From a virus: a stretch of DNA of 13,568 nucleotides. This document shows positions 1,557-12,569 of the stretch, one piece after another. Position numbers and translations under genes: made by a program. Below the pieces are notes generated by a model. It was not told the DNA's origin. It ran no database searches and was given only the letters and a program-made list of their open reading frames with translations. The first letter of the stretch is position 1, and every line of letters starts with the position of its first letter. The DNA lies in IMG/VR virus record IMGVR_UViG_3300037808_001901; one strand, written 5' to 3'.

Positions 1557-1587
1557 AAAAAAACCCAAGGCCAACTTGACCTTGGGT
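1557..1587 (-). terminator. rho-independent terminator (minus strand)
   Basis: 7-bp GC-rich stem CCCAAGG (1564-1570) / CCTTGGG (1581-1587) with a 10-nt loop. On the minus strand it is followed by a T7 run (plus-strand A-run 1557-1563). It lies downstream of the vault-protein gene and the small Met-rich ORF. Confidence 0.6.
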
Positions 1588-1613
1588 TTCGGGACGTGGC
1601 GAGCCTTGTGAGG

Positions 1614-1793
1614 TCACTCGTCGTATTCGTCGTCGTCATCATCATCGTCATCATCCCCCATACCCATCATCATCATCATGGGCATCATGTTCATCATGGG
1701 GTTGGTGCCTTCGCCGCCGCCATTCTGATTCTGCATCATCATGGCCATCAGCATGCCTTTGTCCATACCATCGCCGCCACCTTTGCCCATCAT
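1614..1793 (-). CDS. small low-complexity ORF (59 aa): Met/Gly-rich body with a poly-Asp tail
   Basis: Own translation: MMGKGGGDGMDKGMLMAMMMQNQNGGGEGTNPMMNMMPMMMMMGMGDDDDDDDDDEYDE. The ATG at 1793 lies 6 nt past the MVP stop, in the -1 frame relative to MVP. There is no SD. The His-rich plus-strand ORF 1596-1805 is its mirror image. Confidence 0.3.
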   Translation of the reverse strand: MMGKGGGDGMDKGMLMAMMMQNQNGGGEGTNPMMNMMPMMMMMGMGDDDDDDDDDEYDE

Positions 1794-1798
1794 CGTCG

Positions 1799-4489
1799 TT
1801 ACTGAGGGGCTTGAGTACGTTCAGCACCTCTTGTCAAGGCACCCAAAAATGGTGCCAAGCGTTCCGATCCGCCCAAAATTTGGGTGATCACTTCAACGGC
1901 ACTCTTGCCGCCGATCATTGTCTGGACACTGGTAGCCTCAGCGATCTTGACCGCAACATCATCACGGCTGAGAGCGGTAAGAGCTTCGGTGAATCCACCT
2001 TCCAGAGCAGCGAACTGAGCAATCAAAGCTTCGGAGTCAACCTTCACGCCACCTTGTCGCAATTCTTCAATCGCCACACGACAAGCCTGAGTGTTTGCTT
2101 CCTTGTCTTTGGTTCGACGCATTTCAGCATCATGCGTAACTTGTTCATTGGCAGTTGCTGCCAAAGTAATGTCTTTTCGAGCAACTTCTTGCTCAAGGTC
2201 AGACTTAATCACAGCCAGAGAGTTGGTCAGATTAAGAGTGGTAGTTTCTTGCTGAATTTCAGCTTGGAAACGAACCGTCTCTTGTTTTGCGGTCAACTTC
2301 TCTTTGCTGATTCGCTCATTTTCCACAGTCAACTCAAGGTCACGTTTGGCGTTTTCCAGACTGATGTTCTGGACAACAACGTTCTTTCGAGCTTCGTCGA
2401 GAATCTGAGCAATTCGCTCATCATTCAGTTGAAGATCAAGGACTTCAACGTCAGTGACACGCATACCGTTTTCACTGAAGTACAGACCAGTGAGATCGGT
2501 TTCATCATCAGTGCCATCTTCGGCCTGTTTTGCCAATCGCTTCAACTTGGGGTCTTCTGGATTCTTCACCTTATGAAGAATCGTATCTCGGACAATCGCC
2601 ATACCATTCGTGTAGAACTCTTGAATGGTATTTTGTTTTGCCACACTCTTGAGAATCGACCGGGTGTGGTCGCACAACAGTTTGACGTAATTCTCAACAT
2701 CGAACCAATGTTCTTTGAGTTCTGAATCGAAGTTGACACGATAAGCCAACTTGATCTTAACCTCAATGTTGTCAGAGGTTTCGACGGTAAGCCAATCACT
2801 CACCTTGTTGTTGCTGACACGTAAGTAGACGGTCGGCATCAAGTTGTCAGTGTTTTTCGGCTTGCCCATTGACAATTCGAGAACTTCGAGATTTTCATCG
2901 TAGTCCAGCAAAATGGTCTTGGGGCCAAGTTCGACACGACGTTCGCCAGTCTTACTCACGACCTTGACAGCATAACCTGTCCATAGATCGATAGATGGGA
3001 CATTATCGAACTTACTGCCGACAACAACGGACTTCGGGCCTTTGCGAGCCTGACGACGACCAGCAGCACCACCACGACTTCCAGAAGCTTCGCCCTTTCG
3101 GGTTCGACGACCAGCGTTCTCAAGGTCATCGCTGATTGCTTCAAGACCTTGTGACGAAGTGTGGCCAGCGTAAGAATCGGCTTGACGTGCGAAGTCTTTT
3201 TCGGAGACCAAACCAGATCGACCTGAATTAGATGTTTCCATCATATCTTCAAGTTCGGCATTGTAGGCTGAGACTTCTGCGTTCTCAGGATACATAAGCC
3301 GACATTGACCTTGGCTCAACACACGACGAACAACAAGTTCTTCTCGTGGGTCAGGGAGCAACATCTTGGGGCCGACAATGGTTTCCACATTGCCAGATTC
3401 ACGGTTGAGAAGGTAACGACCTTCACCCTTGGGAATCTGCAAAGCGTAATGCTTGGCATCGGGGCCGAATTGGATGATGGAATGCTCTTTACGTGGGAAG
3501 TAAAGGGCGTTCATTCCGCCAGTGATGAAGATTTCTTCGCCTTCTTTGAAAGACTCGTCGCCATCTTCATAATCTTCGATGACCTTAACATGGATGCCTT
3601 GAGTTTTGTGCAACTCAACGGCTTTGGCCTTTCGGTTTTTGCCTTGTTCCACGAAGGTTTCAGTCGGTTCAGGGAAAACAACTGCTGGTCCACGACAGAA
3701 CCGCTTGTCGCCATTTTCATCGACAAGGATTGTGTGTTCCAGACGTTCAAGCGTAACCGCATCACGAACATAGTTGTTGCCTTCGGGGACAACTTCGACA
3801 CCAGTTGGTGGAATATAGAAACTGCTGTCAGTTCCCTTGATGACGAATAACTTGCCGATGGTCAAATTAAGTTCTTCGGCAGTTGTCGTTGCGTCAATGG
3901 TAGTAGCTTCAGTTTCGCCGTCATTGTTGTCGGCAAGACCACCAGTTTCACCAGCATTAGCTGGCTTGAAGACAGCTTGATCCCAATTTGCCCGTGCTTC
4001 TTCTTCATTGTAAATACGAATGAGAAGATATTGGTTGGACCGTAGGCGATGGCCGGGGATAACGGTCGAGATTTGGCCGGGCCACAAAGCGAAAGTCTTT
4101 GGACCGGGAATGTTAATCTTGCTTCCCATTACAAGAGTCGGGCTGTTTTGTCGATCACTCTCGTTGAATTTGGGGTGTGCTTCATTCTCATTGGACGAGG
4201 GATTTTTGAGAACAATATATTCTCCCTCAGCAGCAATGGGGCACATTCTGACCGAAGCATTCAGATCGCAAGTTCTGAATCGGCCTTCTTCTGCATCGAA
4301 GCCGACTGGACGATCTTGTCCTGTTTGGTTGATCGTACAAGGACCAACACCAACACCAACTCGACCGGACGTTTCGCCTTGCAAATAGGCGTATTCACCG
4401 GGAGCTAAAACTAAGTCACGATCAGCACTTCTGGGTCCACGTTCTCCACCGCCTTGCATGTTACTTCTCCGAAAGTTAGGGGTTTTCAT
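1799..4489 (-). CDS. mvp: major vault protein (MVP) homolog, 896 aa
   Basis: The 896-aa ATG ORF aligns by eye along its whole length with eukaryotic MVP. N-terminal vault repeats: PGEYAYL..VGVGPCT vs PPYHYIH..VEVGPKT; GEYIVLKNP vs HYCTVANP; SFYIPPTGVEVV vs GTYIPRKEVEVV. Shoulder: LAYRVNFD vs LAYNWHFEV; NYVKLLCDHTRSILKSVA vs DFVGDACKAIASRVRGAV. This is followed by a long Ala/Glu/Gln-rich coiled-coil cap-helix segment. An alternative start at Met11 (ATG 4459) has a better SD (GGAGAAG). Confidence 0.85.
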   Translation of the reverse strand: MKTPNFRRSNMQGGGERGPRSADRDLVLAPGEYAYLQGETSGRVGVGVGPCTINQTGQDRPVGFDAEEGRFRTCDLNASVRMCPIAAEGEYIVLKNPSSNENEAHPKFNESDRQNSPTLVMGSKINIPGPKTFALWPGQISTVIPGHRLRSNQYLLIRIYNEEEARANWDQAVFKPANAGETGGLADNNDGETEATTIDATTTAEELNLTIGKLFVIKGTDSSFYIPPTGVEVVPEGNNYVRDAVTLERLEHTILVDENGDKRFCRGPAVVFPEPTETFVEQGKNRKAKAVELHKTQGIHVKVIEDYEDGDESFKEGEEIFITGGMNALYFPRKEHSIIQFGPDAKHYALQIPKGEGRYLLNRESGNVETIVGPKMLLPDPREELVVRRVLSQGQCRLMYPENAEVSAYNAELEDMMETSNSGRSGLVSEKDFARQADSYAGHTSSQGLEAISDDLENAGRRTRKGEASGSRGGAAGRRQARKGPKSVVVGSKFDNVPSIDLWTGYAVKVVSKTGERRVELGPKTILLDYDENLEVLELSMGKPKNTDNLMPTVYLRVSNNKVSDWLTVETSDNIEVKIKLAYRVNFDSELKEHWFDVENYVKLLCDHTRSILKSVAKQNTIQEFYTNGMAIVRDTILHKVKNPEDPKLKRLAKQAEDGTDDETDLTGLYFSENGMRVTDVEVLDLQLNDERIAQILDEARKNVVVQNISLENAKRDLELTVENERISKEKLTAKQETVRFQAEIQQETTTLNLTNSLAVIKSDLEQEVARKDITLAATANEQVTHDAEMRRTKDKEANTQACRVAIEELRQGGVKVDSEALIAQFAALEGGFTEALTALSRDDVAVKIAEATSVQTMIGGKSAVEVITQILGGSERLAPFLGALTRGAERTQAPQ

Positions 4490-4511: not shown

Positions 4512-4541
4512 CCATTGTACGAAAATTTTCGGCAAAGTAAA
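4512..4541 (-). promoter_or_regulatory. conserved sigma70-like promoter motif, copy 1 (minus strand), upstream of the MVP gene
   Basis: Minus-strand reading: TTTACT(-35, 4541-4536)-16 nt-TACAAT(-10, 4519-4514). 25 of 30 positions are identical in all three copies (4512-4541, 8665-8695, 10251-10280), including the invariant CCATTGTACGAAAA block. It sits 23 nt upstream of the MVP ATG. Confidence 0.55.
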
Positions 4542-6034: not shown

Positions 6035-6300
6035 TATTTCTTCTTTTTATTTTTTCTTTTGGTAAGTTCTTTTTCGAACTTATCAATTATATCTTGATCT
6101 GCTATTTTTTTCAATACTGTTAAAAATAAGGTCAATTCACCGTCTAGCTCTTCTATTTGAAGACCACGTTTATGAATTGTCTTGGCTTGACGAGTTTGAC
6201 AAGCTAAAAGGTCTTTTATAACACCTTGAGGATCGCTTTTGCATCTGCTCTGAAACGGACTTGGATCACTCATCAGCGGTGTCTCCGGTATTACTGGCAT
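6034..6300 (-). CDS. hypothetical protein (88 aa), poly-Lys C-terminus
   Basis: ATG ORF. Its stop is adjacent to the exonuclease start. It overlaps the upstream lipoprotein gene by 35 nt. Confidence 0.4.
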   Translation of the reverse strand: MPVIPETPLMSDPSPFQSRCKSDPQGVIKDLLACQTRQAKTIHKRGLQIEELDGELTLFLTVLKKIADQDIIDKFEKELTKRKNKKKK

Positions 6301-6583
6301 TCATCTTTTCCTCAGCTTCTTTCAATTTAACAACAGCAAATTCAAGTTGTTCTCTATATGCTCCAACTTCTTCGGCTGATGAAAAAGAAACCTTAACGTG
6401 ATTACCACAATGGTTCTTGTAGTAAATCTCAATTGAAGATTCTTTGTTGGTCTCTTCAACTGTGACTGTAACTGAGGGTGCTGGTGGTGGAGGCGGAGTT
6501 TCTGGCCTTTCACACCCTGCTACAAGTAAAACAACAATTGCTGCCAAAGAAACAAGTTCGGCCCATAATGGCTTATTCATCAT
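6266..6583 (-). CDS. predicted lipoprotein with proline-rich linker (105 aa)
   Basis: N-terminus MMNKPLWAELVSLAAIVVLLVAGC has a hydrophobic h-region plus the lipobox L-V-A-G-C. The Cys is followed by ERPETPPPPPAPS and then a small C-terminal domain. ATGA overlap with the stop of the upstream gene (6580-6583). Confidence 0.6.
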   Translation of the reverse strand: MMNKPLWAELVSLAAIVVLLVAGCERPETPPPPPAPSVTVTVEETNKESSIEIYYKNHCGNHVKVSFSSAEEVGAYREQLEFAVVKLKEAEEKMNASNTGDTADE

Positions 6584-7167
6584 ATTGCCTCAAATCGGAA
6601 CATCATTTCGTGTACGATCTTTTGAGGATCGAACATTATGCCAGCGTCATCCATTGTGAATTGTTTGTCCCACTTGTCTGTCGCTTCCCAAGTTGGGTCA
6701 ATAAGCTCAGGCTTATTCTTCTTAACCCATGCCTCTAGGAATTCGCAGTCAGTGTCTTCATCATTGCCAATCGCAGCTTTATCCTTGTAATTCCAAACGT
6801 TGCCTTCTTTGGGAATATACGCTCGGAAAGTTTTACCATCTTGGTCAAGATAAACAATGAACTTAATGGGATATTCCCAATCGCCACCAGCAGACCAGCC
6901 AATGAGAGAGAATTGGGTTAAAGGAGATCGAGTCCAAAAAGTTCGTGGGCCTAAGATGCTACACTCAGCCCCGAATTCTTCGTGATCATAAGAGTAATTC
7001 TCAAAGTCAAATTGGACCTTATCAAGATCACTCTGGAATTTTGGACCTAAGCAGTCGAATTCGTAAGGACTAATCCCTTTGCCGCCAAATTTTTCATGGA
7101 ACATTTCCAAGAGTTGGCTGGGATTAACACGTTTAGTCGAACAGGCTTTACGTCTGGCTTTTGGCAT
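6580..7167 (-). CDS. hypothetical protein (195 aa)
   Basis: ATG ORF. It overlaps the upstream gene by 20 nt. No recognisable motif. Confidence 0.5.
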   Translation of the reverse strand: MPKARRKACSTKRVNPSQLLEMFHEKFGGKGISPYEFDCLGPKFQSDLDKVQFDFENYSYDHEEFGAECSILGPRTFWTRSPLTQFSLIGWSAGGDWEYPIKFIVYLDQDGKTFRAYIPKEGNVWNYKDKAAIGNDEDTDCEFLEAWVKKNKPELIDPTWEATDKWDKQFTMDDAGIMFDPQKIVHEMMFRFEAI

Positions 7168-7756
7168 GAACTTCTTCCCACATTAGGAATGCTTCTGATT
7201 CAAGTGCGTGAATCAAACCTTTTGATTCATCCGTTAACTCTTGTGTGTATTCTGGAAGCACAGATGCGGCTCTTACAAGAGAATGTGATTTTATAACTTC
7301 CTCATTAAAATCGTAGCCCGCTTCACTAAGGAAATGGGCCAAACAATCTCTCAAGTTTTCCGTGGTTCCAACAAGATCACAAACCTCTAACAGCCCTTTG
7401 TATCTGGATGTTAAAAATGGGTGATTCCCGTTGCATTCTCTTTGGGTGACGTTTTCAACAAATCGATTAAGATCGTCACTCCAAGCATCTTCTCCCCAAA
7501 GTCTTGTGCAGAACTTCCTACTTCCGTTCAGGAGATAGAAAGCGTGAAATGATTTGTACCATGCGTGTGGATGGCGAAAGACTGTAGCTGTTAAGAATGC
7601 AGGATCGTTGGTTATTTTCTCAACTGCATCTTCAACATTTTTTCTTTCGAAAAGTTTTCTGAGAACGTGATTAACAAAAGAGCCACCATGTTTTGAAACG
7701 TGGTAGAACTTGAGTCTCTTTCCTTCTTTGAGTGGAGAATAATATCTTACATTCAT
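7148..7756 (-). CDS. putative sulfotransferase-like protein (202 aa)
   Basis: KFYHVSKHGGSF resembles the 5'-phosphosulfate-binding F-x-H-[IV]-P-K-[TS]-G-G-[TS] loop of Sulfotransfer_2-type enzymes. The start is set at the internal ATG 7756 because the longer ORF (to 7798) would run into the tRNA at 7760-7863. The ATG lies 3 nt after the tRNA 3' end. Confidence 0.45.
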   Translation of the reverse strand: MNVRYYSPLKEGKRLKFYHVSKHGGSFVNHVLRKLFERKNVEDAVEKITNDPAFLTATVFRHPHAWYKSFHAFYLLNGSRKFCTRLWGEDAWSDDLNRFVENVTQRECNGNHPFLTSRYKGLLEVCDLVGTTENLRDCLAHFLSEAGYDFNEEVIKSHSLVRAASVLPEYTQELTDESKGLIHALESEAFLMWEEVHAKSQT

Positions 7757-7759
7757 GAG

Positions 7760-7863
7760 TGCCCCTAGCAGGACTCGAACCTGCACGCCTTTCGGCACTA
7801 GTTCCTATCGTAGGGTTGTTTAACCCTTAAAACTAGCGTGTCTGCCAATTCCACCATAGGGGC
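7760..7863 (-). tRNA. tRNA-Leu(TAA), type II, with a 22-nt insertion (intron-like) in the anticodon loop
   Basis: Minus strand: GCCCCTA-TG-GTG-GAATTGGCAGA-CAC-G-CTAGT-[TTTAAG|GGTTAAACAACCCTACGATAGG|A]-ACTAG-TGCCGAAAGGCGT-GCAGG-TTCGAGT-CCTGC-TAGGGGC-A. Perfect 7-bp acceptor, long variable arm, discriminator A, canonical D and T arms. 29 nt lie between the anticodon-stem halves, against the normal 7. Confidence 0.6.
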
Positions 7864-8030: not shown

Positions 8031-8417
8031 TTATTCGTCTAAGGACTCTACTTCCGTGACAAAGTATGTAGTAGCCCCCTTCCAACTTTGAGAACTACGT
8101 TGTTCACGATAGTGTATCTTGACTCGTTTGCCAGAATCCATAGCATCTTCAACTTGCTCAACAACGCTTTCGCCATCTTCGGGCGGATAAACGCTGAACT
8201 CCCATTTTTCACGTTGGCCACCTTGATCGATGGCACCCATAGCAAGTTCGCCTTCCCATGTTTTTACCCAACTCCCTTTGTGAGAGAATTTGACAACAAC
8301 ACCGACTCGGCTACCTTCTGAGTAGGTCCAACCAGCAGACGAAAACCACAAATACACTCCGCCACCTAAGACCCCCACAACCGCAAGAATCATGGCAACT
8401 TTTTTGGCTTTATCCAT
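8031..8417 (-). CDS. membrane-anchored hypothetical protein (128 aa)
   Basis: N-terminal hydrophobic helix (VAMILAVVGVLGGGVYLWF). ATG start. Its ATG shares one nucleotide with the TGA stop of the upstream ORF (TGATG). Confidence 0.55.
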   Translation of the reverse strand: MDKAKKVAMILAVVGVLGGGVYLWFSSAGWTYSEGSRVGVVVKFSHKGSWVKTWEGELAMGAIDQGGQREKWEFSVYPPEDGESVVEQVEDAMDSGKRVKIHYREQRSSQSWKGATTYFVTEVESLDE

Positions 8418-8608
8418 CAGTCAGTCCTTCCATTTAATAAGCGTCCAAGAGACACTCGTTTCCCGGCTTGATTAGTGCTTTCGGGGTATTTTTCTTTTGC
8501 ACAGTCATTATCGCAAAAGAATTTATCCTCTAAAAAGCATCCTGTCCATTCCCAATTGAAGGTACGCCCACAATTGCAACACACCTTCTCAATTATATCC
8601 TCAGCCAT
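8417..8608 (-). CDS. small Cys-rich (zinc-ribbon-like) protein, 63 aa
   Basis: CCNCGRTF..C..C...C pattern. ATG start, about 55 nt downstream of conserved promoter copy 2. Confidence 0.5.
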   Translation of the reverse strand: MAEDIIEKVCCNCGRTFNWEWTGCFLEDKFFCDNDCAKEKYPESTNQAGKRVSLGRLLNGRTD

Positions 8609-8664: not shown

Positions 8665-8695
8665 CCATTGTACGAAAATTTTGGGCAATGTAAAG
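8665..8695 (-). promoter_or_regulatory. conserved sigma70-like promoter motif, copy 2 (minus strand)
   Basis: Minus-strand TTTACA(8694-8689)-16 nt-TACAAT(8672-8667). It shares the CCATTGTACGAAAATTTT..GC.A.GTAAA core with copies 1 and 3. It lies immediately downstream of the terminator at 8697-8736. Confidence 0.55.
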
Positions 8696-8999: not shown

Positions 9000-9653
9000 T
9001 CAATCTTCCCACCAAGGACAAAGAACTCTGCTTTTTTTACAAGCATATTGAGAAGTTCTTTGTACCCACACCCAACAAGTGTTGTCATCGCAGTCATTGG
9101 TTAACATCACAGTTTTTCCCTCACTTTTTACAAAGTGAGAAAGTCTTTCTTTGGGATGATAATGGCGATTTAACTTATACATGATGCCCGCAGGGAATTG
9201 TTTACAGGGGTTGCCTCTTAAAGCAATCCCTCCACGCAGCAATGTTCTTGTTGTAAGTTCTCCGCAATGGATTCCTTTGCCAATCTTTCCTCGAAGATAA
9301 CTCCAAATGCTATACTCTCTATCTACTTGGTTTTCCAAGTAAGTACGCATTTTAAGTGCTTCGGCTCTGTTGTACAGAATCTTTGGCTTCATCAGCCATA
9401 TCTTCATTTGACGATTATGTTTTCTGTTGTGATTCTCTATTTCTTTAACATAATCAGAAAGGAGCAGTTTCCTGACCCTTGGAGGCTCAGCCTCATATAC
9501 CCACAGTTCCTCTCCAATATTAAAAAGCATCGCAACATGGGTATAAGGACTATCGGTTTCGTTTTCGACTATCCTATTGCCACCCTCGATAAATAACATT
9601 GTACCATCGGGACAGCTTGCTAATAATGTTGTTGCTAATATAATTGAATACAT
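9000..9653 (-). CDS. predicted lipoprotein, permuted papain-fold amidase/peptidase (YaeF/YiiX-like, C92 family)
   Basis: N-terminus MYSIILATTLLASC carries the lipobox L-A-S-C. YTHVAMLFNIGEE resembles the conserved SHVAIFLGE His segment and IHCGELTTRTL the C[SG]E Cys segment. The His-before-Cys order is typical of permuted NlpC/P60-like YaeF/YiiX lipoproteins. Confidence 0.55.
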   Translation of the reverse strand: MYSIILATTLLASCPDGTMLFIEGGNRIVENETDSPYTHVAMLFNIGEELWVYEAEPPRVRKLLLSDYVKEIENHNRKHNRQMKIWLMKPKILYNRAEALKMRTYLENQVDREYSIWSYLRGKIGKGIHCGELTTRTLLRGGIALRGNPCKQFPAGIMYKLNRHYHPKERLSHFVKSEGKTVMLTNDCDDNTCWVWVQRTSQYACKKSRVLCPWWED

Positions 9654-10250: not shown

Positions 10251-10280
10251 CCATTGTACGAAAAAAAATTGCGATGTAAA
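10251..10280 (-). promoter_or_regulatory. conserved sigma70-like promoter motif, copy 3 (minus strand), upstream of the tRNA-like gene
   Basis: Minus-strand TTTACA(10280-10275)-16 nt-TACAAT(10258-10253). It abuts the TAG stop of the XRE-like gene (10282-10284). Confidence 0.55.
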
Positions 10281-10281
10281 C

Positions 10282-10533
10282 CTAAGAGCAACCACGTTCT
10301 TCATCTTGGTGACAATCGTGACCAAAGATTACTTCTTGGGTTTTTCTCCCAAAAACTTTGGCGACACACTGCATTTGACCCTTTGTAGGACTCCATTGCC
10401 GACCAACAATTCTTGAGGTTATTCCTTTGGGAAGATTACATTGCTCACAAAGAGCATCGCAACTCATATCGTTTTCTTTTAAGAGTTCATCAACCCAAAG
10501 AGGTTTTCTGAGAGTGACGTTTATAACAGCCAT
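10282..10533 (-). CDS. XRE-family helix-turn-helix transcriptional regulator (83 aa)
   Basis: CDALCEQCNLPKGITSRIVGRQWSPTKGQMQCVAKVFGRKTQEVIF matches the HTH_3 pattern (..LA...G.S...ISRIE.G...P......K.A..FG....E.F). Confidence 0.55.
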   Translation of the reverse strand: MAVINVTLRKPLWVDELLKENDMSCDALCEQCNLPKGITSRIVGRQWSPTKGQMQCVAKVFGRKTQEVIFGHDCHQDEERGCS

Positions 10534-10549: not shown

Positions 10550-10576
10550 TAAAAAAGTTACCATATCTAGGTAACC
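10550..10576 (-). terminator. possible terminator-like hairpin overlapping the S4 gene stop
   Basis: GTTACC (10557-10562) / GGTAAC (10571-10576), a 6-bp stem with a 7-nt loop. On the minus strand it is followed by T6 (plus-strand A-run 10550-10555). The stem is short and AT-rich, so this is weak. Confidence 0.3.
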
Positions 10577-10761
10577 GTGGCTGATTTTTTGGCTTTAATG
10601 CCCACTTCAATAAGGTCGCCTTTTCCGACCATTTTGTCAATATCAAGAATCTTTGTCCCATCAACTCGAACACCGCCCTGACAAATTAGACGACGAGCTT
10701 CAGAACAAGAGACAACAAGCTTTAAATTAGCCATTTCCCGCACTAGGTTTTTGTCTTCCAT
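10567..10761 (-). CDS. S4-domain RNA-binding protein (64 aa)
   Basis: SEARRLICQGGVRVDGTKILDIDKMVGKGDLIEV follows the S4 motif (ARRLI.QG.V.VNG......D..V..GD.I). SD AGGAG precedes the ATG. It overlaps the upstream gene by 19 nt. Confidence 0.6.
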   Translation of the reverse strand: MEDKNLVREMANLKLVVSCSEARRLICQGGVRVDGTKILDIDKMVGKGDLIEVGIKAKKSATVT

Positions 10762-11261
10762 ATCTTCTCCTCTACATCAAATGTTCTTGCCAATACAAAC
10801 AAGTAATCGCTTAAACGATTAAGATAAGGAACAACAAGAGCAAATCTTCTGATGGAATCCGGTGTTGAATCTTTTCTCTCTGCTTCCCAAGCAGAAACCA
10901 CTCTTTCTGCTCTTCGACAAACAGTTCTTGCCACATGAATCTCAGGAGTGGATTTTGGAATAATGAAATTCTTTAATTCTGGCAAATCACTTTCCATAAG
11001 ATCAATAAGCGATTCAAGCTGGGTAATATCGTCTTCTGTTATTCTTGTGTTCCCTATCGCAAGTTGTGCCCCTATTTCCATCAGGTCTCTTTGAATTTTC
11101 TCTAAGACAGGCACATCCATTATTTTATCTCGGATCATTCCAATCCAAGCATTAAGTTCATCAATTTCACCTTGTCCATCGACAGAACAATCATGTTTTG
11201 GAACACGCATCCCACTGCTTAATGTGGTCCCGTTATCGCCGGTTTTTGTGTAAATTTTCAT
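10743..11261 (-). CDS. ATP:cob(I)alamin adenosyltransferase, PduO/MMAB-type
   Basis: N-terminus MKIYTKTGDNGTT is the signature start of PduO-type corrinoid adenosyltransferases (MKIYTRTGDKGxT). GEIDELNAWIG matches the following conserved helix. 172 aa. ATGA overlap with the S24-like gene. Confidence 0.75.
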   Translation of the reverse strand: MKIYTKTGDNGTTLSSGMRVPKHDCSVDGQGEIDELNAWIGMIRDKIMDVPVLEKIQRDLMEIGAQLAIGNTRITEDDITQLESLIDLMESDLPELKNFIIPKSTPEIHVARTVCRRAERVVSAWEAERKDSTPDSIRRFALVVPYLNRLSDYLFVLARTFDVEEKIWKTKT

Positions 11262-11934: not shown

Positions 11935-11970
11935 AAGATCAATATAACATAAATAATCTTATAAGAAAAG

Positions 11971-12059
11971 CGGTGAGGACAGGATTTGAACCTGCGGAGG
12001 GTATTTCACCTCTTCGGTTTTCGAAACCGACGCCTTAAACCAAGCTCAGCCACCTCACC
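11971..12059 (-). tRNA. tRNA-Ser(CGA), type II
   Basis: GGTGAGG-TG-GCT-GAGCTTGGTTTAA-GGC-G-TCGGT-TTCGAAA-ACCGA-long variable arm AGAGGTGAAATACCCTCC-GCAGG-TTCAAAT-CCTGT-CCTCACC-G. Canonical cloverleaf, discriminator G. Confidence 0.8.
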
Positions 12060-12065
12060 GTAAAG

Positions 12066-12145
12066 CGGAAAAGACGGGAATCGAACCCGCATGACCCTTT
12101 CGGGCCAACTTGTTTAGCAAACAAGCCCGGCGACACCACACTTCC
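12066..12145 (-). tRNA. tRNA-Ser(GCT)-like gene with truncated or aberrant D-arm (possible pseudogene)
   Basis: Anticodon arm CTTGT-TTGCTAA-ACAAG, long variable arm GGCCC-GAAA-GGGTC and T arm GCGGG-TTCGATT-CCCGT are intact. Only 13 nt lie between the acceptor and the anticodon stem (about 19 expected). The acceptor stem has one T-T mismatch. Confidence 0.4.
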
Positions 12146-12165
12146 GGCTCTCTTCCAGTGTCAAG

Positions 12166-12249
12166 CGGAGGACACGGGATTTGAACCCGCAAGCCATATT
12201 TCAGACCAACTGCTTTCCAAGCAGTCCGCTAACCGTTCGCTTATCCTCC
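12166..12249 (-). tRNA. tRNA-Ser(GGA)-like gene with non-pairing D-stem (possible pseudogene)
   Basis: Acceptor GGAGGAT/GTCCTCC, anticodon arm ACTGC-TTGGAAA-GCAGT and T arm GCGGG-TTCAAAT-CCCGT are present. The D region AAGCGAACGGTTAGCGG contains a direct repeat (AGCG..AGCG) rather than complementary halves. The variable arm is poorly paired. Confidence 0.4.
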
Positions 12250-12319
12250 ATTATGATGGCTGCAACTCAGGGACTTTTAGCCCGCAGCAGGGTAGTCTTA
12301 TTCCTGAGCAATCATCAAG

Positions 12320-12400
12320 TACCCGTGGCGAGAGTCGAACTCGCAAGCCTTGCGGCACCAGATTCTAAGTCTGGCGTGTTTACCGTTTCACCACACGGGC
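12320..12400 (-). tRNA. tRNA-Leu(TAG), type II
   Basis: GCCCGTG-TG-GTG-AAACGGTAAA-CAC-G-CCAGA-CTTAGAA-TCTGG-TGCCGCAAGGCTT-GCGAG-TTCGACT-CTCGC-CACGGGT-A. Canonical cloverleaf, G1-T72 wobble, discriminator A. Confidence 0.8.
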
Positions 12401-12404
12401 ATAG

Positions 12405-12478
12405 TAGCACTGGTCGGAGTCGAACCGACAAACACTTAGTTTTAAGCTAAGCCGCTTTGCCAATTAGCGTACAGTGCC
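12405..12478 (-). tRNA. type I (short variable arm) tRNA with anticodon TAA (Leu by anticodon)
   Basis: GGCACTG-TA-CGC-TAATTGGCAAA-GCG-G-CTTAG-CTTAAAA-CTAAG-TGTTT-GTCGG-TTCGACT-CCGAC-CAGTGCT-A. Canonical 74-nt cloverleaf, discriminator A. 5-nt variable loop, which is unusual for a Leu decoder. Confidence 0.6.
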
Positions 12479-12484
12479 AAAAAG

Positions 12485-12564
12485 TAGCCTTGGTGGGAGT
12501 CGAACCCACAAAATCACCAGATTCTAAATCTAGCCGCTTTGCCATTAGGTTTGCGTACAAGGCC
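12485..12564 (-). tRNA. type I tRNA with anticodon TAG (Leu by anticodon), long D-loop
   Basis: GGCCTTG-TA-CGC-AAACCTAATGGCAAA-GCG-G-CTAGA-TTTAGAA-TCTGG-TGATTTT-GTGGG-TTCGACT-CCCAC-CAAGGCT-A. 15-nt D-loop and 7-nt variable loop. Discriminator A. Confidence 0.5.
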
Positions 12565-12569
12565 ATAAG

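What the first reader, a model, noticed from the sequence alone, without database searches (positions are those of the whole stretch)
1799..4489. Full-length major vault protein (vault shell) homolog in a phage-like prokaryotic context
The 896-aa ORF matches eukaryotic MVP over its whole length: N-terminal vault repeats (PGEYAYL..VGVGPCT; GEYIVLKNP; SFYIPPTGVEVV), the shoulder domain (LAYRVNFD; NYVKLLCDHTRSILKSVA..EFYTN) and a long coiled-coil cap helix. Vaults are eukaryotic megadalton ribonucleoprotein shells, and MVP homologs outside eukaryotes are rare. Here the gene has its own copy of a conserved phage-type promoter and sits among overlapping prokaryotic genes, lipoproteins and a tRNA array. 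No TEP1, vPARP or vault-RNA partner is evident in the window. A phage-encoded self-assembling shell would be a new kind of virion or intracellular compartment component.
Basis: partly seen in the sequence, partly recalled or inferred. Interest (0 to 1): 0.85.

Follow-up and report, generated by a model that had tools for sequence, protein, structure and literature searches.

The report
Huge-phage major vault protein homolog
A probable huge phage carries a complete copy of the protein that builds eukaryotic "vault" cages, but such copies turn out to be common in bacteria and huge phages and were reported in phages in 2023, so this one is a new example, not a new kind of thing.

Summary
The ORF is real. 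It lies at 1799..4489 on the MINUS strand (896 aa). The conserved start is M11 at 4459, giving 886 aa.

It is a full-length MVP-family protein. Pfam MVP_shoulder scores 1.8e-22 and Vault_3 3.2e-12. A family profile aligns collinearly with rat MVP 466-802 (2.7e-32). The AlphaFold model's top 12 PDB matches are whole vault-shell chains (to 2e-28), and it has a 149-residue cap helix.

The context is phage-like: GC about 0.41-0.49, 11-12 tRNAs, small genes all on one strand, and 85% nucleotide collinearity with a 25.8 kb phage-like contig. The gene has its own conserved promoter, Shine-Dalgarno site and terminator.

The rarity premise is wrong. There are 568 clusters at 50% identity (E<=1e-30), 357 bacterial species genomes (mainly Myxococcota) and at least 222 IMG/VR contigs, mostly 60-500 kb. 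A 2023 preprint already reported phage MVPs.

No TEP1, PARP or vault RNA is in the window. In related phage loci, MVP sits near WGR-PARP, NADAR, ADP-ribosylhydrolase or NUDIX genes. In another phage clade it sits inside RNA-repair gene clusters.

Most likely it forms a cytoplasmic vault-like cage or scaffold used in infection, not a virion part. Assembly and function are inferred. Verdict: new member of a known kind.

The parts
1799..4459 (-). MVP-family coding sequence from the conserved start M11 (886 aa plus stop). The maximal ORF extends to 4489 (896 aa).
   Evidence: ORF. Conserved ATG and Shine-Dalgarno in window, L003 and L086. Pfam, PDB, fold match.
3314..4417 (-). N-terminal beta-rich vault-type repeats (aa 25-392 of the 896-aa ORF, roughly 6 repeats), including a lineage-specific acidic low-confidence insert at aa 176-205.
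   Evidence: DSSP and pLDDT of the model. Foldseek matches murine MVP R1-R7 crystal structures at E=3e-11. Weak repeat-to-repeat HMM alignments. Net charge of the insert.
2999..3313 (-). Helical segment (aa 393-439) plus a disordered, Arg/Gly-rich basic loop (aa 440-497, net +5). Its length varies across the family (44-98 aa).
   Evidence: pLDDT below 50 over aa 440-495. Charge and length statistics over 117 homologs.
2825..2998 (-). Last vault repeat (R9-equivalent; the Pfam Vault_3 match is aa 513-550). It contains the nearly invariant T-G-K-P-K loop that aligns with the human MVP 'keyhole loop' G-R-P-K (R504, K506).
   Evidence: Pfam. Alignment to human MVP. Invariant columns. NAD+ pocket residues from PMC12280208.
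2420..2824 (-). Shoulder (SPFH-like alpha/beta) domain, aa 556-690.
   Evidence: Pfam MVP_shoulder E=1.8e-22 over aa 560-689. pLDDT about 86-92. Secondary Foldseek matches to flotillin, prohibitin, HflK/C and stomatin.
1973..2419 (-). Cap helix: one continuous predicted helix of 149 residues (aa 691-839, about 41 turns).
   Evidence: DSSP. Profile alignment runs collinearly to rat MVP residue 802, the end of its cap helix.
1799..1972 (-). C-terminal short helices (aa 840-896, cap-ring-equivalent region, low confidence) and the stop codon.
   Evidence: Conserved columns G832-L878.
4514..4541 (-). Sigma-70-like promoter TTTACT-N16-TACAAT dedicated to the MVP gene.
   Evidence: 3 copies in the window against 0.15 expected. 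Extended conserved core TTTTCGTACAATGG. Same position upstream of MVP in L003 and L086.
4465..4470 (-). Shine-Dalgarno GGAGAA, 5 nt upstream of the conserved start ATG at 4459.
   Evidence: Invariant in the three-way alignment.
1560..1590 (-). Intrinsic terminator (14-bp stem, 6 G-C pairs, T-run) closing the MVP transcription unit.
   Evidence: sequence.

Best explanation
The gene encodes a complete major-vault-protein-family subunit carried by an uncultured large or huge phage. SHOWN: it has the full MVP architecture. That comprises N-terminal beta repeats, a last Vault_3 repeat, an SPFH-like shoulder, a cap helix of about 41 turns and a short C-terminal region. It is soluble and acidic with no membrane segment. 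It is an independent transcription unit with its own conserved sigma-70-like promoter, Shine-Dalgarno site and terminator. It belongs to the large prokaryotic (Myxococcota-type) branch of the MVP family, within a subgroup found on huge-phage-like contigs. INFERRED: like eukaryotic MVP, the subunits probably self-assemble side by side, through cap-helix bundling and lateral repeat and shoulder contacts, into a closed or half-vault cage in the cytoplasm of the infected cell. That cage probably serves as a scaffold or compartment for the phage's conflict with host defences, not as a virion part. The most likely cargo or clients are enzymes and substrates of NAD+/ADP-ribose metabolism and RNA (tRNA) repair, because those are the genes that recur beside phage MVP genes. 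In the window itself the conserved neighbours are pyrE, a DnaQ/RNase T-type exonuclease and an FkbM methyltransferase, and a tRNA array lies 7.5 kb away. No direct partner can be named from the window itself.
For: Family membership: sequence; the model's top 12 PDB matches are whole vault chains at E 1e-21 to 2e-28; R1-R7 at 3e-11. Soluble and acidic: maximum KD19 hydropathy 1.14, net charge -29. Transcription unit. Phage context: 11 tRNAs plus one more. Small genes on one strand, mostly without Pfam matches. PHROG hits for the neighbours. 85% nucleotide collinearity with L003 and about 75% with L086. GC 0.41 against 0.69 for bacterial MVP loci. Nearest MVPs lie on 41-340 kb phage-like contigs that carry a release factor, tRNAs and, in one, a T4 gp15-like tail protein. 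MVP homologs occur in the 735 kb and 462 kb LR7565xx huge phages. Not a virion module: the recurrent neighbours in 80 phage loci are enzymes. ADP-ribose link in the window's sister group: WGR-PARP 1.4 kb upstream in L004 and 7 kb downstream in L009; NADAR two genes upstream in L085; NUDIX adjacent in L013; a DraG-like ADP-ribosylhydrolase 2.8 kb downstream in L003. PARP also lies 6 kb from MVP in LR756500, although PARP is present in only 18 of 50,697 phage records. RNA-repair link: 17 of 54 dereplicated phage groups have an RNA ligase, PNK-like kinase, RlaP, Thg1 or DUF2828-vWA gene within 10 kb. Literature: eukaryotic MVP binds NAD+/ADP-ribose at the shoulder and houses PARP4 and the TEP1 NADase (PMC12280208; bioRxiv 10.64898/2026.05.01.722283).
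Against: No oligomer was modelled or observed. The monomer model has pTM 0.34 and mean pLDDT 71, with low-confidence stretches in repeats 4-5. There appear to be about 7 repeats instead of 9, so cage geometry may differ. No PARP, TEP1/TROVE, vault RNA or RNA ligase is in the window. The window's immediate neighbours are pyrimidine and miscellaneous metabolic genes. The RNA-repair linkage is confined to another MVP clade and is absent from the loci closest to the window. Neighbourhood enrichment was not tested against random genomic controls. Only 2 of the 5 basic human NAD+-pocket residues are conserved: K543 and K545 are kept, while R507, H509 and R511 become N, D and M. Bacterial MVP genes have no conserved neighbours. 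Cultured PARP-bearing jumbo phages lack MVP.
Confidence: 0.6

Rival explanations
1. It is a virion component, for example a capsid-internal, decoration or ejection protein, as the first reader suggested as one option.
For: It is a large protein built for self-assembly with its own strong promoter. One sister-group locus has a T4 gp15-like tail gene within 10 kb.
Against: In 80 phage loci, none of the recurrent neighbour families that were annotated is a capsid, portal, terminase or tail protein; they are phosphatases, kinases, ligases, exonucleases and similar enzymes. There is no PHROG match. Free-living Myxococcota and Cytophagales carry the same protein as a chromosomal gene.
Confidence: 0.1
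2. It is a bacterial chromosomal gene. The window would be a fragment of a bacterium, or of a prophage-free region, and not a phage.
For: Most named homologs are from bacterial MAGs. The window holds no phage hallmark structural gene. There is no nucleotide match in the phage collection.
Against: 11-12 tRNA genes lie within 1.6 kb, including near-complete Ser and Leu sets. Dense short genes run on one strand and most lack Pfam matches. GC is 0.41-0.49 against a median of 0.69 for bacterial MVP loci. A repeated phage-style promoter is present. Relatives sit on phage-like contigs with HNH, UvrD, pyrF, release factor and scattered tRNAs. A close relative comes from a TARA 0.1-0.22 um size fraction (P0007).
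Confidence: 0.07
3. It acts mainly as a small-molecule sponge or reservoir, binding NAD+, ADP-ribose or nucleotides in the shoulder pocket. That would buffer host NAD+-depletion or ADP-ribose signalling defences, with or without a closed cage.
For: Human MVP binds NAD+, ADP and ADP-ribose at a pocket formed by the keyhole loop (PMC12280208; bioRxiv 10.64898/2026.05.01.722283). The G-K-P-K loop is nearly invariant in the prokaryotic and phage family. ADP-ribose-processing genes are neighbours in related phages.
Against: Three of the five basic pocket residues are not conserved. Human affinity is only tens of micromolar. No binding data exist for any prokaryotic MVP.
Confidence: 0.15
4. It is an auxiliary 'storage' gene that sequesters amino acids or nucleotides (the nutrient-store hypothesis adopted for phage MVPs by Santos et al. 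2023), or a passively carried, recently acquired gene with no specific role.
For: Proposed in bioRxiv 10.1101/2023.11.10.566534. The gene's GC (0.46-0.49) is higher than its flanks (0.39-0.42), consistent with acquisition from a higher-GC donor. Its neighbours are metabolic genes such as pyrE.
Against: The gene keeps 64-93% identity, conserved synteny, promoter and Shine-Dalgarno site across diverged relatives. It recurs in at least 222 viral contigs. That argues for selection on a specific function.
Confidence: 0.08

Closest known systems
Eukaryotic major vault protein (rat, human and rabbit MVP; PDB 4V60, 9BW5, 9Z4W), shell of the 78-mer vault ribonucleoprotein
   Same: Same domain order and fold: beta repeats, last repeat, SPFH-like shoulder, a cap helix of about 40 turns, then a C-terminal region. 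Soluble and acidic. The G-(K/R)-P-K loop is conserved. Profile E=2.7e-32 and Foldseek E to 2e-28.
   Different: Only about 15% identity. About 7 repeats instead of 9 (inferred). An extra helical and disordered basic insert lies before the last repeat. The NAD+ pocket is only partly conserved. No TEP1, PARP4 or vault RNA is nearby. It is encoded by a phage and expressed from a bacterial-type promoter. Assembly is untested.
Bacterial MVP-like proteins of Myxococcota and Cytophagales (Sokolskyi 2019, bioRxiv 10.1101/872010)
   Same: 43-47% identity over about 97% of the length, with the same inserts and invariant residues. The window protein belongs to this branch of the family.
   Different: Those are chromosomal genes in GC-rich genomes with unrelated neighbours. 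This one is on a low-GC phage-like contig with a phage promoter.
Phage MVPs of gut Caudoviricetes ctOa11 and ct2Ri15 (Santos et al. 2023, bioRxiv 10.1101/2023.11.10.566534)
   Same: Phage-encoded, full-length, bacterial-type MVP homologs without TEP1 or vPARP in the genome. Known from sequence and AlphaFold models only.
   Different: Different lineage and habitat. Close relatives of the window include a marine TARA sample. The window's relatives sit on huge-phage-size contigs. Those two phages were not recovered by tblastn at E<=1e-5 in the phage collection used, so direct similarity was not measured.
MVP homologs of the Al-Shayeb-type huge phages LR756500, LR756501 and LR756503 (462-735 kb)
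   Same: 39% identity over 84-91% of the protein. Huge-phage context rich in tRNAs and auxiliary genes.
   Different: They fall outside the window's 19-member subgroup in the tree. LR756500 has PARP, RNA ligase, a PNK-like kinase and an AAA ATPase within 8 kb upstream of MVP, which the window lacks.
SPFH/Band-7 cage proteins (flotillin, prohibitin, HflK/C, stomatin)
   Same: The shoulder domain and following long helix match these cage-forming proteins structurally (Foldseek E 1e-4 to 5e-8).
   Different: Those are membrane-anchored and lack vault repeats. The window protein has no hydrophobic segment, and Pfam Band_7 was not among its matches at E<=1.

Membership tests
Major vault protein family (Pfam MVP_shoulder plus Vault repeats) | SPFH-like shoulder domain (PF11978) | tested here: met
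   E=1.8e-22, 80.1 bits against cut-off 25, aa 560-689, profile positions 2-117 of 118.
Major vault protein family (Pfam MVP_shoulder plus Vault repeats) | Tandem N-terminal vault repeats | tested here: met
   Vault_3 E=3.2e-12, above cut-off. The model matches murine MVP R1-R7 crystal structures at E=3e-11. Other Pfam vault-repeat models were not among the matches at E<=1, and the repeat count (about 7) is estimated only from predicted secondary structure.
Major vault protein family (Pfam MVP_shoulder plus Vault repeats) | Long cap helix directly after the shoulder (rat residues 647-802) | tested here: met
   A continuous 149-residue helix at aa 691-839. The profile alignment is collinear to rat residue 802.
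Major vault protein family (Pfam MVP_shoulder plus Vault repeats) | Self-assembly into a 39-fold half-vault or 78-mer cage | not testable with these tools
   No multimer prediction or experiment was available. Inferred from conserved architecture only.
Eukaryotic vault ribonucleoprotein (MVP + TEP1 + PARP4 + vault RNA) | TEP1 (TROVE/NACHT/WD40) partner | tested here: not met
   No such domain in any window ORF. Some other phage loci have a helical-plus-vWA protein (DUF2828/DUF7788, MIDAS motif) just upstream of MVP, but no TROVE or Ro60 match was obtained.
Eukaryotic vault ribonucleoprotein (MVP + TEP1 + PARP4 + vault RNA) | PARP partner | tested here: not met
   None in the window. WGR-PARP genes lie within 1.4-7 kb of MVP in related phage loci L004, L009 and L002. 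They have PARP1/2-type architecture, and no PARP4-type BRCT, VIT or vWA domain was reported among their Pfam matches.
Eukaryotic vault ribonucleoprotein (MVP + TEP1 + PARP4 + vault RNA) | Vault RNA | tested here: not met
   An Rfam E-value scan of the window finds only tRNAs and tRNA-like hits. The weak YrlA hit (25.5 bits, gathering score 69) overlaps a tRNA.
Prokaryotic/phage RNA-repair systems with scaffold proteins (Burroughs & Aravind 2016, recalled from memory; paper not held) | RNA ligase plus end-healing kinase/phosphatase plus nucleotidyltransferase in the same neighbourhood | tested here: not met
   Absent from the window and from L003 and L086. Present around MVP in 17 of 54 dereplicated phage groups of a different MVP clade.
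SPFH/Band-7 membrane scaffolds | Membrane anchor plus a Band_7 domain without vault repeats | tested here: not met
   No hydrophobic segment (maximum KD19 1.14). No Band_7 match at E<=1. Vault repeats are present.

The most novel reading that the evidence does not exclude
Huge phages build genuine vault-like cages that work together with ADP-ribose/NAD+ enzymes (WGR-PARP, NADAR, ARH, NUDIX) and, in other lineages, with tRNA-repair enzymes and a vWA protein. On this reading the vault's association with PARP, NAD+ and small RNAs is an ancient conflict-system module that predates or parallels the eukaryotic organelle. It would give the long-unsolved question of vault function a prokaryotic, genetically tractable entry point.
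Probability: 0.2. Interest if true: 0.85.

Novelty: new member of a known kind. Interest (0 to 1): 0.45.

Why it matters
Vault function has been unresolved since 1986. Prokaryotic and phage MVPs have never been studied experimentally. Showing that a phage MVP forms a cage, and finding what it encloses, would test whether the PARP/NAD+/RNA associations of eukaryotic vaults reflect an ancestral role in host-virus conflict. It could also supply a bacterially expressible vault-type nanocage. This window is one of hundreds of such genes, and it carries no partner gene. Its main value is as a well-delimited, promoter-to-terminator example with close relatives for comparison.

Tried and rejected
1. 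Eukaryotic contamination was rejected. The gene has bacterial-type promoters, a Shine-Dalgarno site and a terminator, and it sits among overlapping genes and a tRNA array.

2. A generic SPFH or coiled-coil hit only was rejected. The Vault_3 and MVP_shoulder matches are above their cut-offs, and the fold matches whole vault chains.

3. A PHROGs search of MVP found no family.

4. A megablast of the window against phages found no match.

5. An exact-protein look-up of the window MVP found nothing on record.

6. A single-sequence scan of IMG/VR found nothing. The alignment-based scan was needed.

7. I tried to show that the DUF2828/DUF7788 neighbour is a TROVE (Ro60/TEP1) homolog. This remains unresolved.

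8. Burroughs & Aravind 2016 (NAR 44:8525) could not be read. Its content is cited from memory only.

9. Bacterial MVP neighbourhoods showed no conserved partner. The apparent clusters were high-GC antisense ORFs and Ser/Thr kinases.

10. pyrE as an NAD-salvage enzyme was rejected. It is a bona fide orotate phosphoribosyltransferase, and pyrF lies nearby in L003.

11. The afdb50 fold library was unavailable.

12. BFVD held no clear phage MVP. It returned only a giant-virus 802-aa protein and ordinary Band-7 proteins.

13. The 59-aa Met/Gly/Asp-rich ORF after MVP was considered as a partner. It is not conserved in L003 or L086, so it is probably a low-complexity insertion.
Full report
**Observation**

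The window has one long ORF at 1799..4489 on the minus strand, 896 codons with an ATG start. A three-way alignment with the two closest related contigs shows that the first ATG is not conserved. The ATG at 4459 (M11) and a GGAGAA Shine-Dalgarno 5 nt upstream are invariant. M11 also aligns with the start Met of more than 90% of homologs. The real product is therefore most likely 886 aa.

**Family**

- Pfam gives MVP_shoulder at E=1.8e-22 (aa 560-689) and Vault_3 at E=3.2e-12 (aa 513-550). Both are above their gathering scores.
- phmmer against PDB sequences returns only vault chains, at E about 1e-12.
- A profile of 117 homologs aligns collinearly with rat MVP residues 466-802 (last repeat, shoulder, whole cap helix) at E=2.7e-32. 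The N-terminal repeats align only weakly, at 13 bits or less.
- An AlphaFold2 model was built from the 117-sequence alignment, with mean pLDDT 71 and pTM 0.34. It shows beta-rich repeats at aa 25-392 and a helical segment followed by a disordered Arg/Gly-rich loop at aa 393-497. A further repeat occupies aa 498-555 and a confident alpha/beta shoulder aa 556-690. A single 149-residue helix spans aa 691-839, followed by short C-terminal helices.
- Foldseek against the PDB puts 12 full-length vault structures (rabbit, human, rat) on top, at E 2e-28 to 1e-21, with alignments over about 900-1000 columns. Murine MVP R1-R7 fragments follow at 3e-11, then SPFH cages such as flotillin, prohibitin, HflK/C and stomatin.
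- Global TM-scores are low (about 0.2), as expected for an elongated multidomain monomer.
- The protein has no hydrophobic segment and a net charge of -29.

Membership in the MVP family is met for the shoulder, the repeats and the cap helix. Assembly into a cage could not be tested.

**Is the context a phage?**

- The window has 11 tRNA genes at 11970-13553, and Rfam finds a twelfth tRNA-like gene at 7760-7863.
- Genes are short, nearly all on the minus strand, often overlapping, and mostly without Pfam matches.
- GC is about 0.39-0.49. The median is 0.69 for 80 bacterial MVP loci and 0.38 for 80 viral ones.
- A 28-nt promoter motif, TTTACW-N16-TACAAT with the conserved core TTTTCGTACAATGG, occurs three times, all on the minus strand, against 0.15 expected.
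- The window is collinear at 85% nucleotide identity with L003, part of a 25.8 kb contig, and at about 75% with L086. L003 continues into HNH, DraG-like ADP-ribosylhydrolase, CoaD-like, pyrF, deoxyribosyltransferase-like and UvrD genes.
- The next-closest MVPs (47-49% identity) lie on 41-143 kb contigs. These are dense with small unknown ORFs and carry a release factor, SAICAR synthase, scattered tRNAs and NADAR.
- MVP homologs are present in the 735 kb and 462 kb uncultured huge phages LR756501, LR756503 and LR756500.

No capsid or terminase gene lies in the window, so the phage assignment is strong but circumstantial.

**Transcription unit**

The promoter at 4514-4541 is conserved directly upstream of MVP in L003 and L086. 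A strong terminator lies at 1560-1590. MVP is therefore expressed on its own.

**How rare is this?**

It is not rare.

- The word-indexed search found 5,662 proteins at E<=1e-5 among the 8,000 candidates scored. Many are already labelled 'major vault protein' by JGI, and many come from Myxococcota MAGs at 43-47% identity over about 97% of the length.
- The exhaustive search of 1.84 billion cluster representatives found 1,091 clusters at E<=1e-3 and 568 at E<=1e-30.
- 357 species-representative genomes matched two peptide patterns. They are mostly Kofleriaceae, Haliangiales, Nannocystaceae and Cytophagales.
- At least 222 IMG/VR viral contigs encode relatives, and most of the 80 retrieved come from contigs of 60-500 kb.
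- Bacterial MVPs were described in bioRxiv 10.1101/872010. 'The first viral MVPs', from two gut Caudoviricetes, were described in bioRxiv 10.1101/2023.11.10.566534 by sequence and AlphaFold only.
- Neither a 2021 comparative analysis of jumbo phages (PMC7824862) nor a 2026 review (PMC13282480) mentions vault or MVP. In the INPHARED-based phage collection, only the three LR7565xx records match.

**Placement**

A neighbour-joining tree of 151 MVPs was built without support values, so it is approximate. It puts the window with L003, L086 and P0002, P0003, P0005 and P0006. That clade sits inside a 19-tip group that is otherwise made of phage-like contigs (L084, L085, L004, L005/L013, L009), one probably bacterial contig (L089) and five database proteins (P0008, P0010, P0011, P0013, P0016) whose contigs were not examined. 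The group is nested beside Myxococcota sequences. The MVP gene's GC (0.46-0.49) exceeds that of its flanks (0.39-0.42), which fits acquisition from a GC-richer donor (inference).

**What sits next to phage MVP genes**

I called ORFs in all fetched loci, clustered them and annotated the recurrent families. The counts of loci, out of 80 viral loci, were:

| Neighbour family | Loci |
|---|---|
| Metallophosphatases (three families) | 21, 18, 11 |
| AAA_33/PNK-like kinase | 16 |
| DUF2828+DUF7788 protein, often directly upstream of MVP | 12 |
| RlaP 'RNA repair pathway' nucleotidyltransferase | 12 |
| PhoH | 11 |
| Band-7/flotillin | 9 |
| NADAR | 8 |
| RNase T-type exonuclease | 8 |
| RNA ligases (three families) | 7, 6, 5 |
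| Thg1 | 6 |

After dereplication at 70% MVP identity (54 groups), 17 groups have at least one core RNA-repair gene within 10 kb, and 13 have an RNA ligase. This linkage is confined to clades distant from the window. The window, L003, L086 and loci L004-L023 lack it.

In the window's own sister group a different theme recurs:

- a complete WGR + regulatory + catalytic PARP 1.4 kb upstream of MVP in L004 (E=2.3e-30);
- a WGR-PARP 7 kb downstream in L009;
- NADAR two genes upstream in L085;
- NUDIX adjacent in L013;
- a DraG-like ADP-ribosylhydrolase 2.8 kb downstream in L003.

A PARP catalytic domain also lies 6 kb upstream of MVP in LR756500. PARP is found in only 18 of 50,697 phage records. 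Its appearance within 10 kb of MVP in three or four independent lineages is therefore unlikely to be chance, although I could not run a proper genomic control.

The DUF2828/DUF7788 protein has a helical N-terminal part and a vWA-like C-terminal domain with an invariant DxSxS MIDAS motif. No TROVE or Ro60 similarity was detectable. Bacterial MVP genes show no conserved neighbours.

**The window's own neighbours**

The neighbours are pyrE (TIGR00336, 144.7 bits against a cut-off of 106.8), a DnaQ/RNase T-type exonuclease and an FkbM methyltransferase. Their order around MVP is conserved in relatives whose MVPs are 79-93% identical. None is a recognisable vault partner. An Rfam scan finds no vault RNA or Y RNA above threshold.

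**Mechanism**

Shown: the protein has complete MVP architecture, it is soluble, it has an independent and conserved expression unit, and it lies in a huge-phage lineage.

Inferred from established knowledge of MVP: eukaryotic MVP alone self-assembles into the cage through cap-helix and lateral contacts (Stephen et al. 2001 and Tanaka et al. 2009, as cited). The phage protein probably forms a vault-like or half-vault cage in the infected cell.

Inferred from neighbourhoods and recent vault biochemistry: human MVP has an NAD+/ADP-ribose pocket at the shoulder, and the vault houses PARP4 and the TEP1 NADase. The phage cage may therefore organise or shield NAD+/ADP-ribose-dependent or RNA-repair reactions during conflict with host defences.

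The human keyhole-loop residues R504 and K506 correspond to K543 and K545, in a T-G-K-P-K motif that is nearly invariant across the family. R507, H509 and R511 are replaced by N546, D548 and M551, so nucleotide binding is uncertain.

A virion role is disfavoured because structural neighbours are largely lacking and because free-living bacteria carry the same protein.

**Verdict**

This is a new member of a known, though experimentally untouched, class of phage and bacterial MVPs. The more interesting lead is family-wide: the recurrent proximity of phage MVP to PARP and ADP-ribose enzymes and to RNA-repair modules. I did not find that described in the papers I could search. It is not visible in this window itself.

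Noticed in passing
window 7760-7863 (-): A 104-nt tRNA-like gene (Rfam tRNA, 47 bits) that ARAGORN missed. It is the ortholog of a normal 82-nt tRNA-Leu(UAG) in L003 (239-321) but carries a precise 22-nt insertion (AAGGGTTAAACAACCCTACGAT, a small hairpin) in the anticodon loop. It could be a mini-intron, a disabled tRNA or a tRNA-like RNA. The GTG start of ORF 7148..7798 overlaps it, so that gene probably starts at the ATG near 7755.
   Followed up: partly
window 11970-13553 (-): The array of 11 tRNAs is almost entirely class-II tRNAs: four Ser (cga, gct, gga, tga), four Leu (tag, taa, caa, gag) and Tyr, plus two Phe. That is a near-complete Ser and Leu isoacceptor set. Weak sub-threshold tRNA-like hits fill some gaps (12485-12563, 13117-13198, 13299-13379).
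   Followed up: no
window 1584-1811: A window-specific low-complexity segment rich in ATG and GAT lies between the MVP stop and the terminator. It is 228 nt, replaced by 88 nt in L003. It encodes a 59-aa Met/Gly-rich ORF with a poly-Asp tail on the minus strand (1614-1793) and a His-rich ORF on the plus strand (1596-1805). It is absent from L003, and L086 has only 76 nt between MVP and the next gene.
   Followed up: partly
window 8667-8694 and 10253-10280 (-): Two further exact copies of the MVP promoter motif (TTTACA-N16-TACAAT, core TTTTCGTACAATGG) lie upstream of a 63-aa Cys-rich ORF (8417-8608) and an 83-aa ORF (10282-10533). This defines a small promoter class in this phage.
   Followed up: yes
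L004:7283-8596, L009:19498-21084, L002:2493-3767: Eukaryote-type PARP genes (WGR + regulatory + catalytic domains in L004, WGR + catalytic in L009, catalytic domain in L002) lie 1.4-7 kb from the MVP gene in three independent huge-phage lineages. PARP occurs in only 18 of 50,697 phage records.
   Followed up: partly
L055-L083 (e.g. L078:136-1623, L061:3070-7484, L074:6471-8096): In a gut/animal-associated clade of phage contigs, MVP is embedded in an RNA-repair gene cluster (RNA ligases, PNK-like kinase, RlaP nucleotidyltransferase, Thg1, metallophosphatases). It is often directly preceded by a 495-aa helical-plus-vWA protein (DUF2828/DUF7788, intact MIDAS motif). A separate flotillin-like Band-7 protein is also nearby.
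   Followed up: partly
L142, L145, L150, L165 (GTDB MAGs): MVP-bearing contigs, one of 328 kb, are binned into Saccharibacteria and Magasanikiibacteriota (CPR) MAGs. These are probably mis-binned huge-phage contigs rather than CPR genes. An AAA+ ATPase is adjacent to MVP in L144 (a Haliangiales MAG), L145 and L165.
   Followed up: no
BFVD entry A0A3G5A4K1 (Harvfovirus sp.): An 802-aa giant-virus 'prohibitin domain-containing protein' is the only near-full-length structural match among predicted viral structures (E=5e-11 over 939 columns). It may be an MVP homolog in a eukaryotic giant virus.
   Followed up: no
window 6266-6583, 9000-9653, 10567-11261 (-): Two ORFs have lipoprotein-type signal peptides (LVAGC and LLASC lipoboxes); the second has a weak C92 amidase-like match. 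A 64-aa S4/TyrRS-C-terminal-like protein is also present, next to a cob(I)alamin adenosyltransferase (PF01923, E=3e-46), an unusual phage auxiliary gene.
   Followed up: no
L087:11633-14098: In one Myxococcales genome, a VIT + vWA protein lies two genes downstream of MVP. PARP4 also carries these two domains. The gene is not conserved in the other bacterial locus examined, so this is likely coincidence.
   Followed up: no
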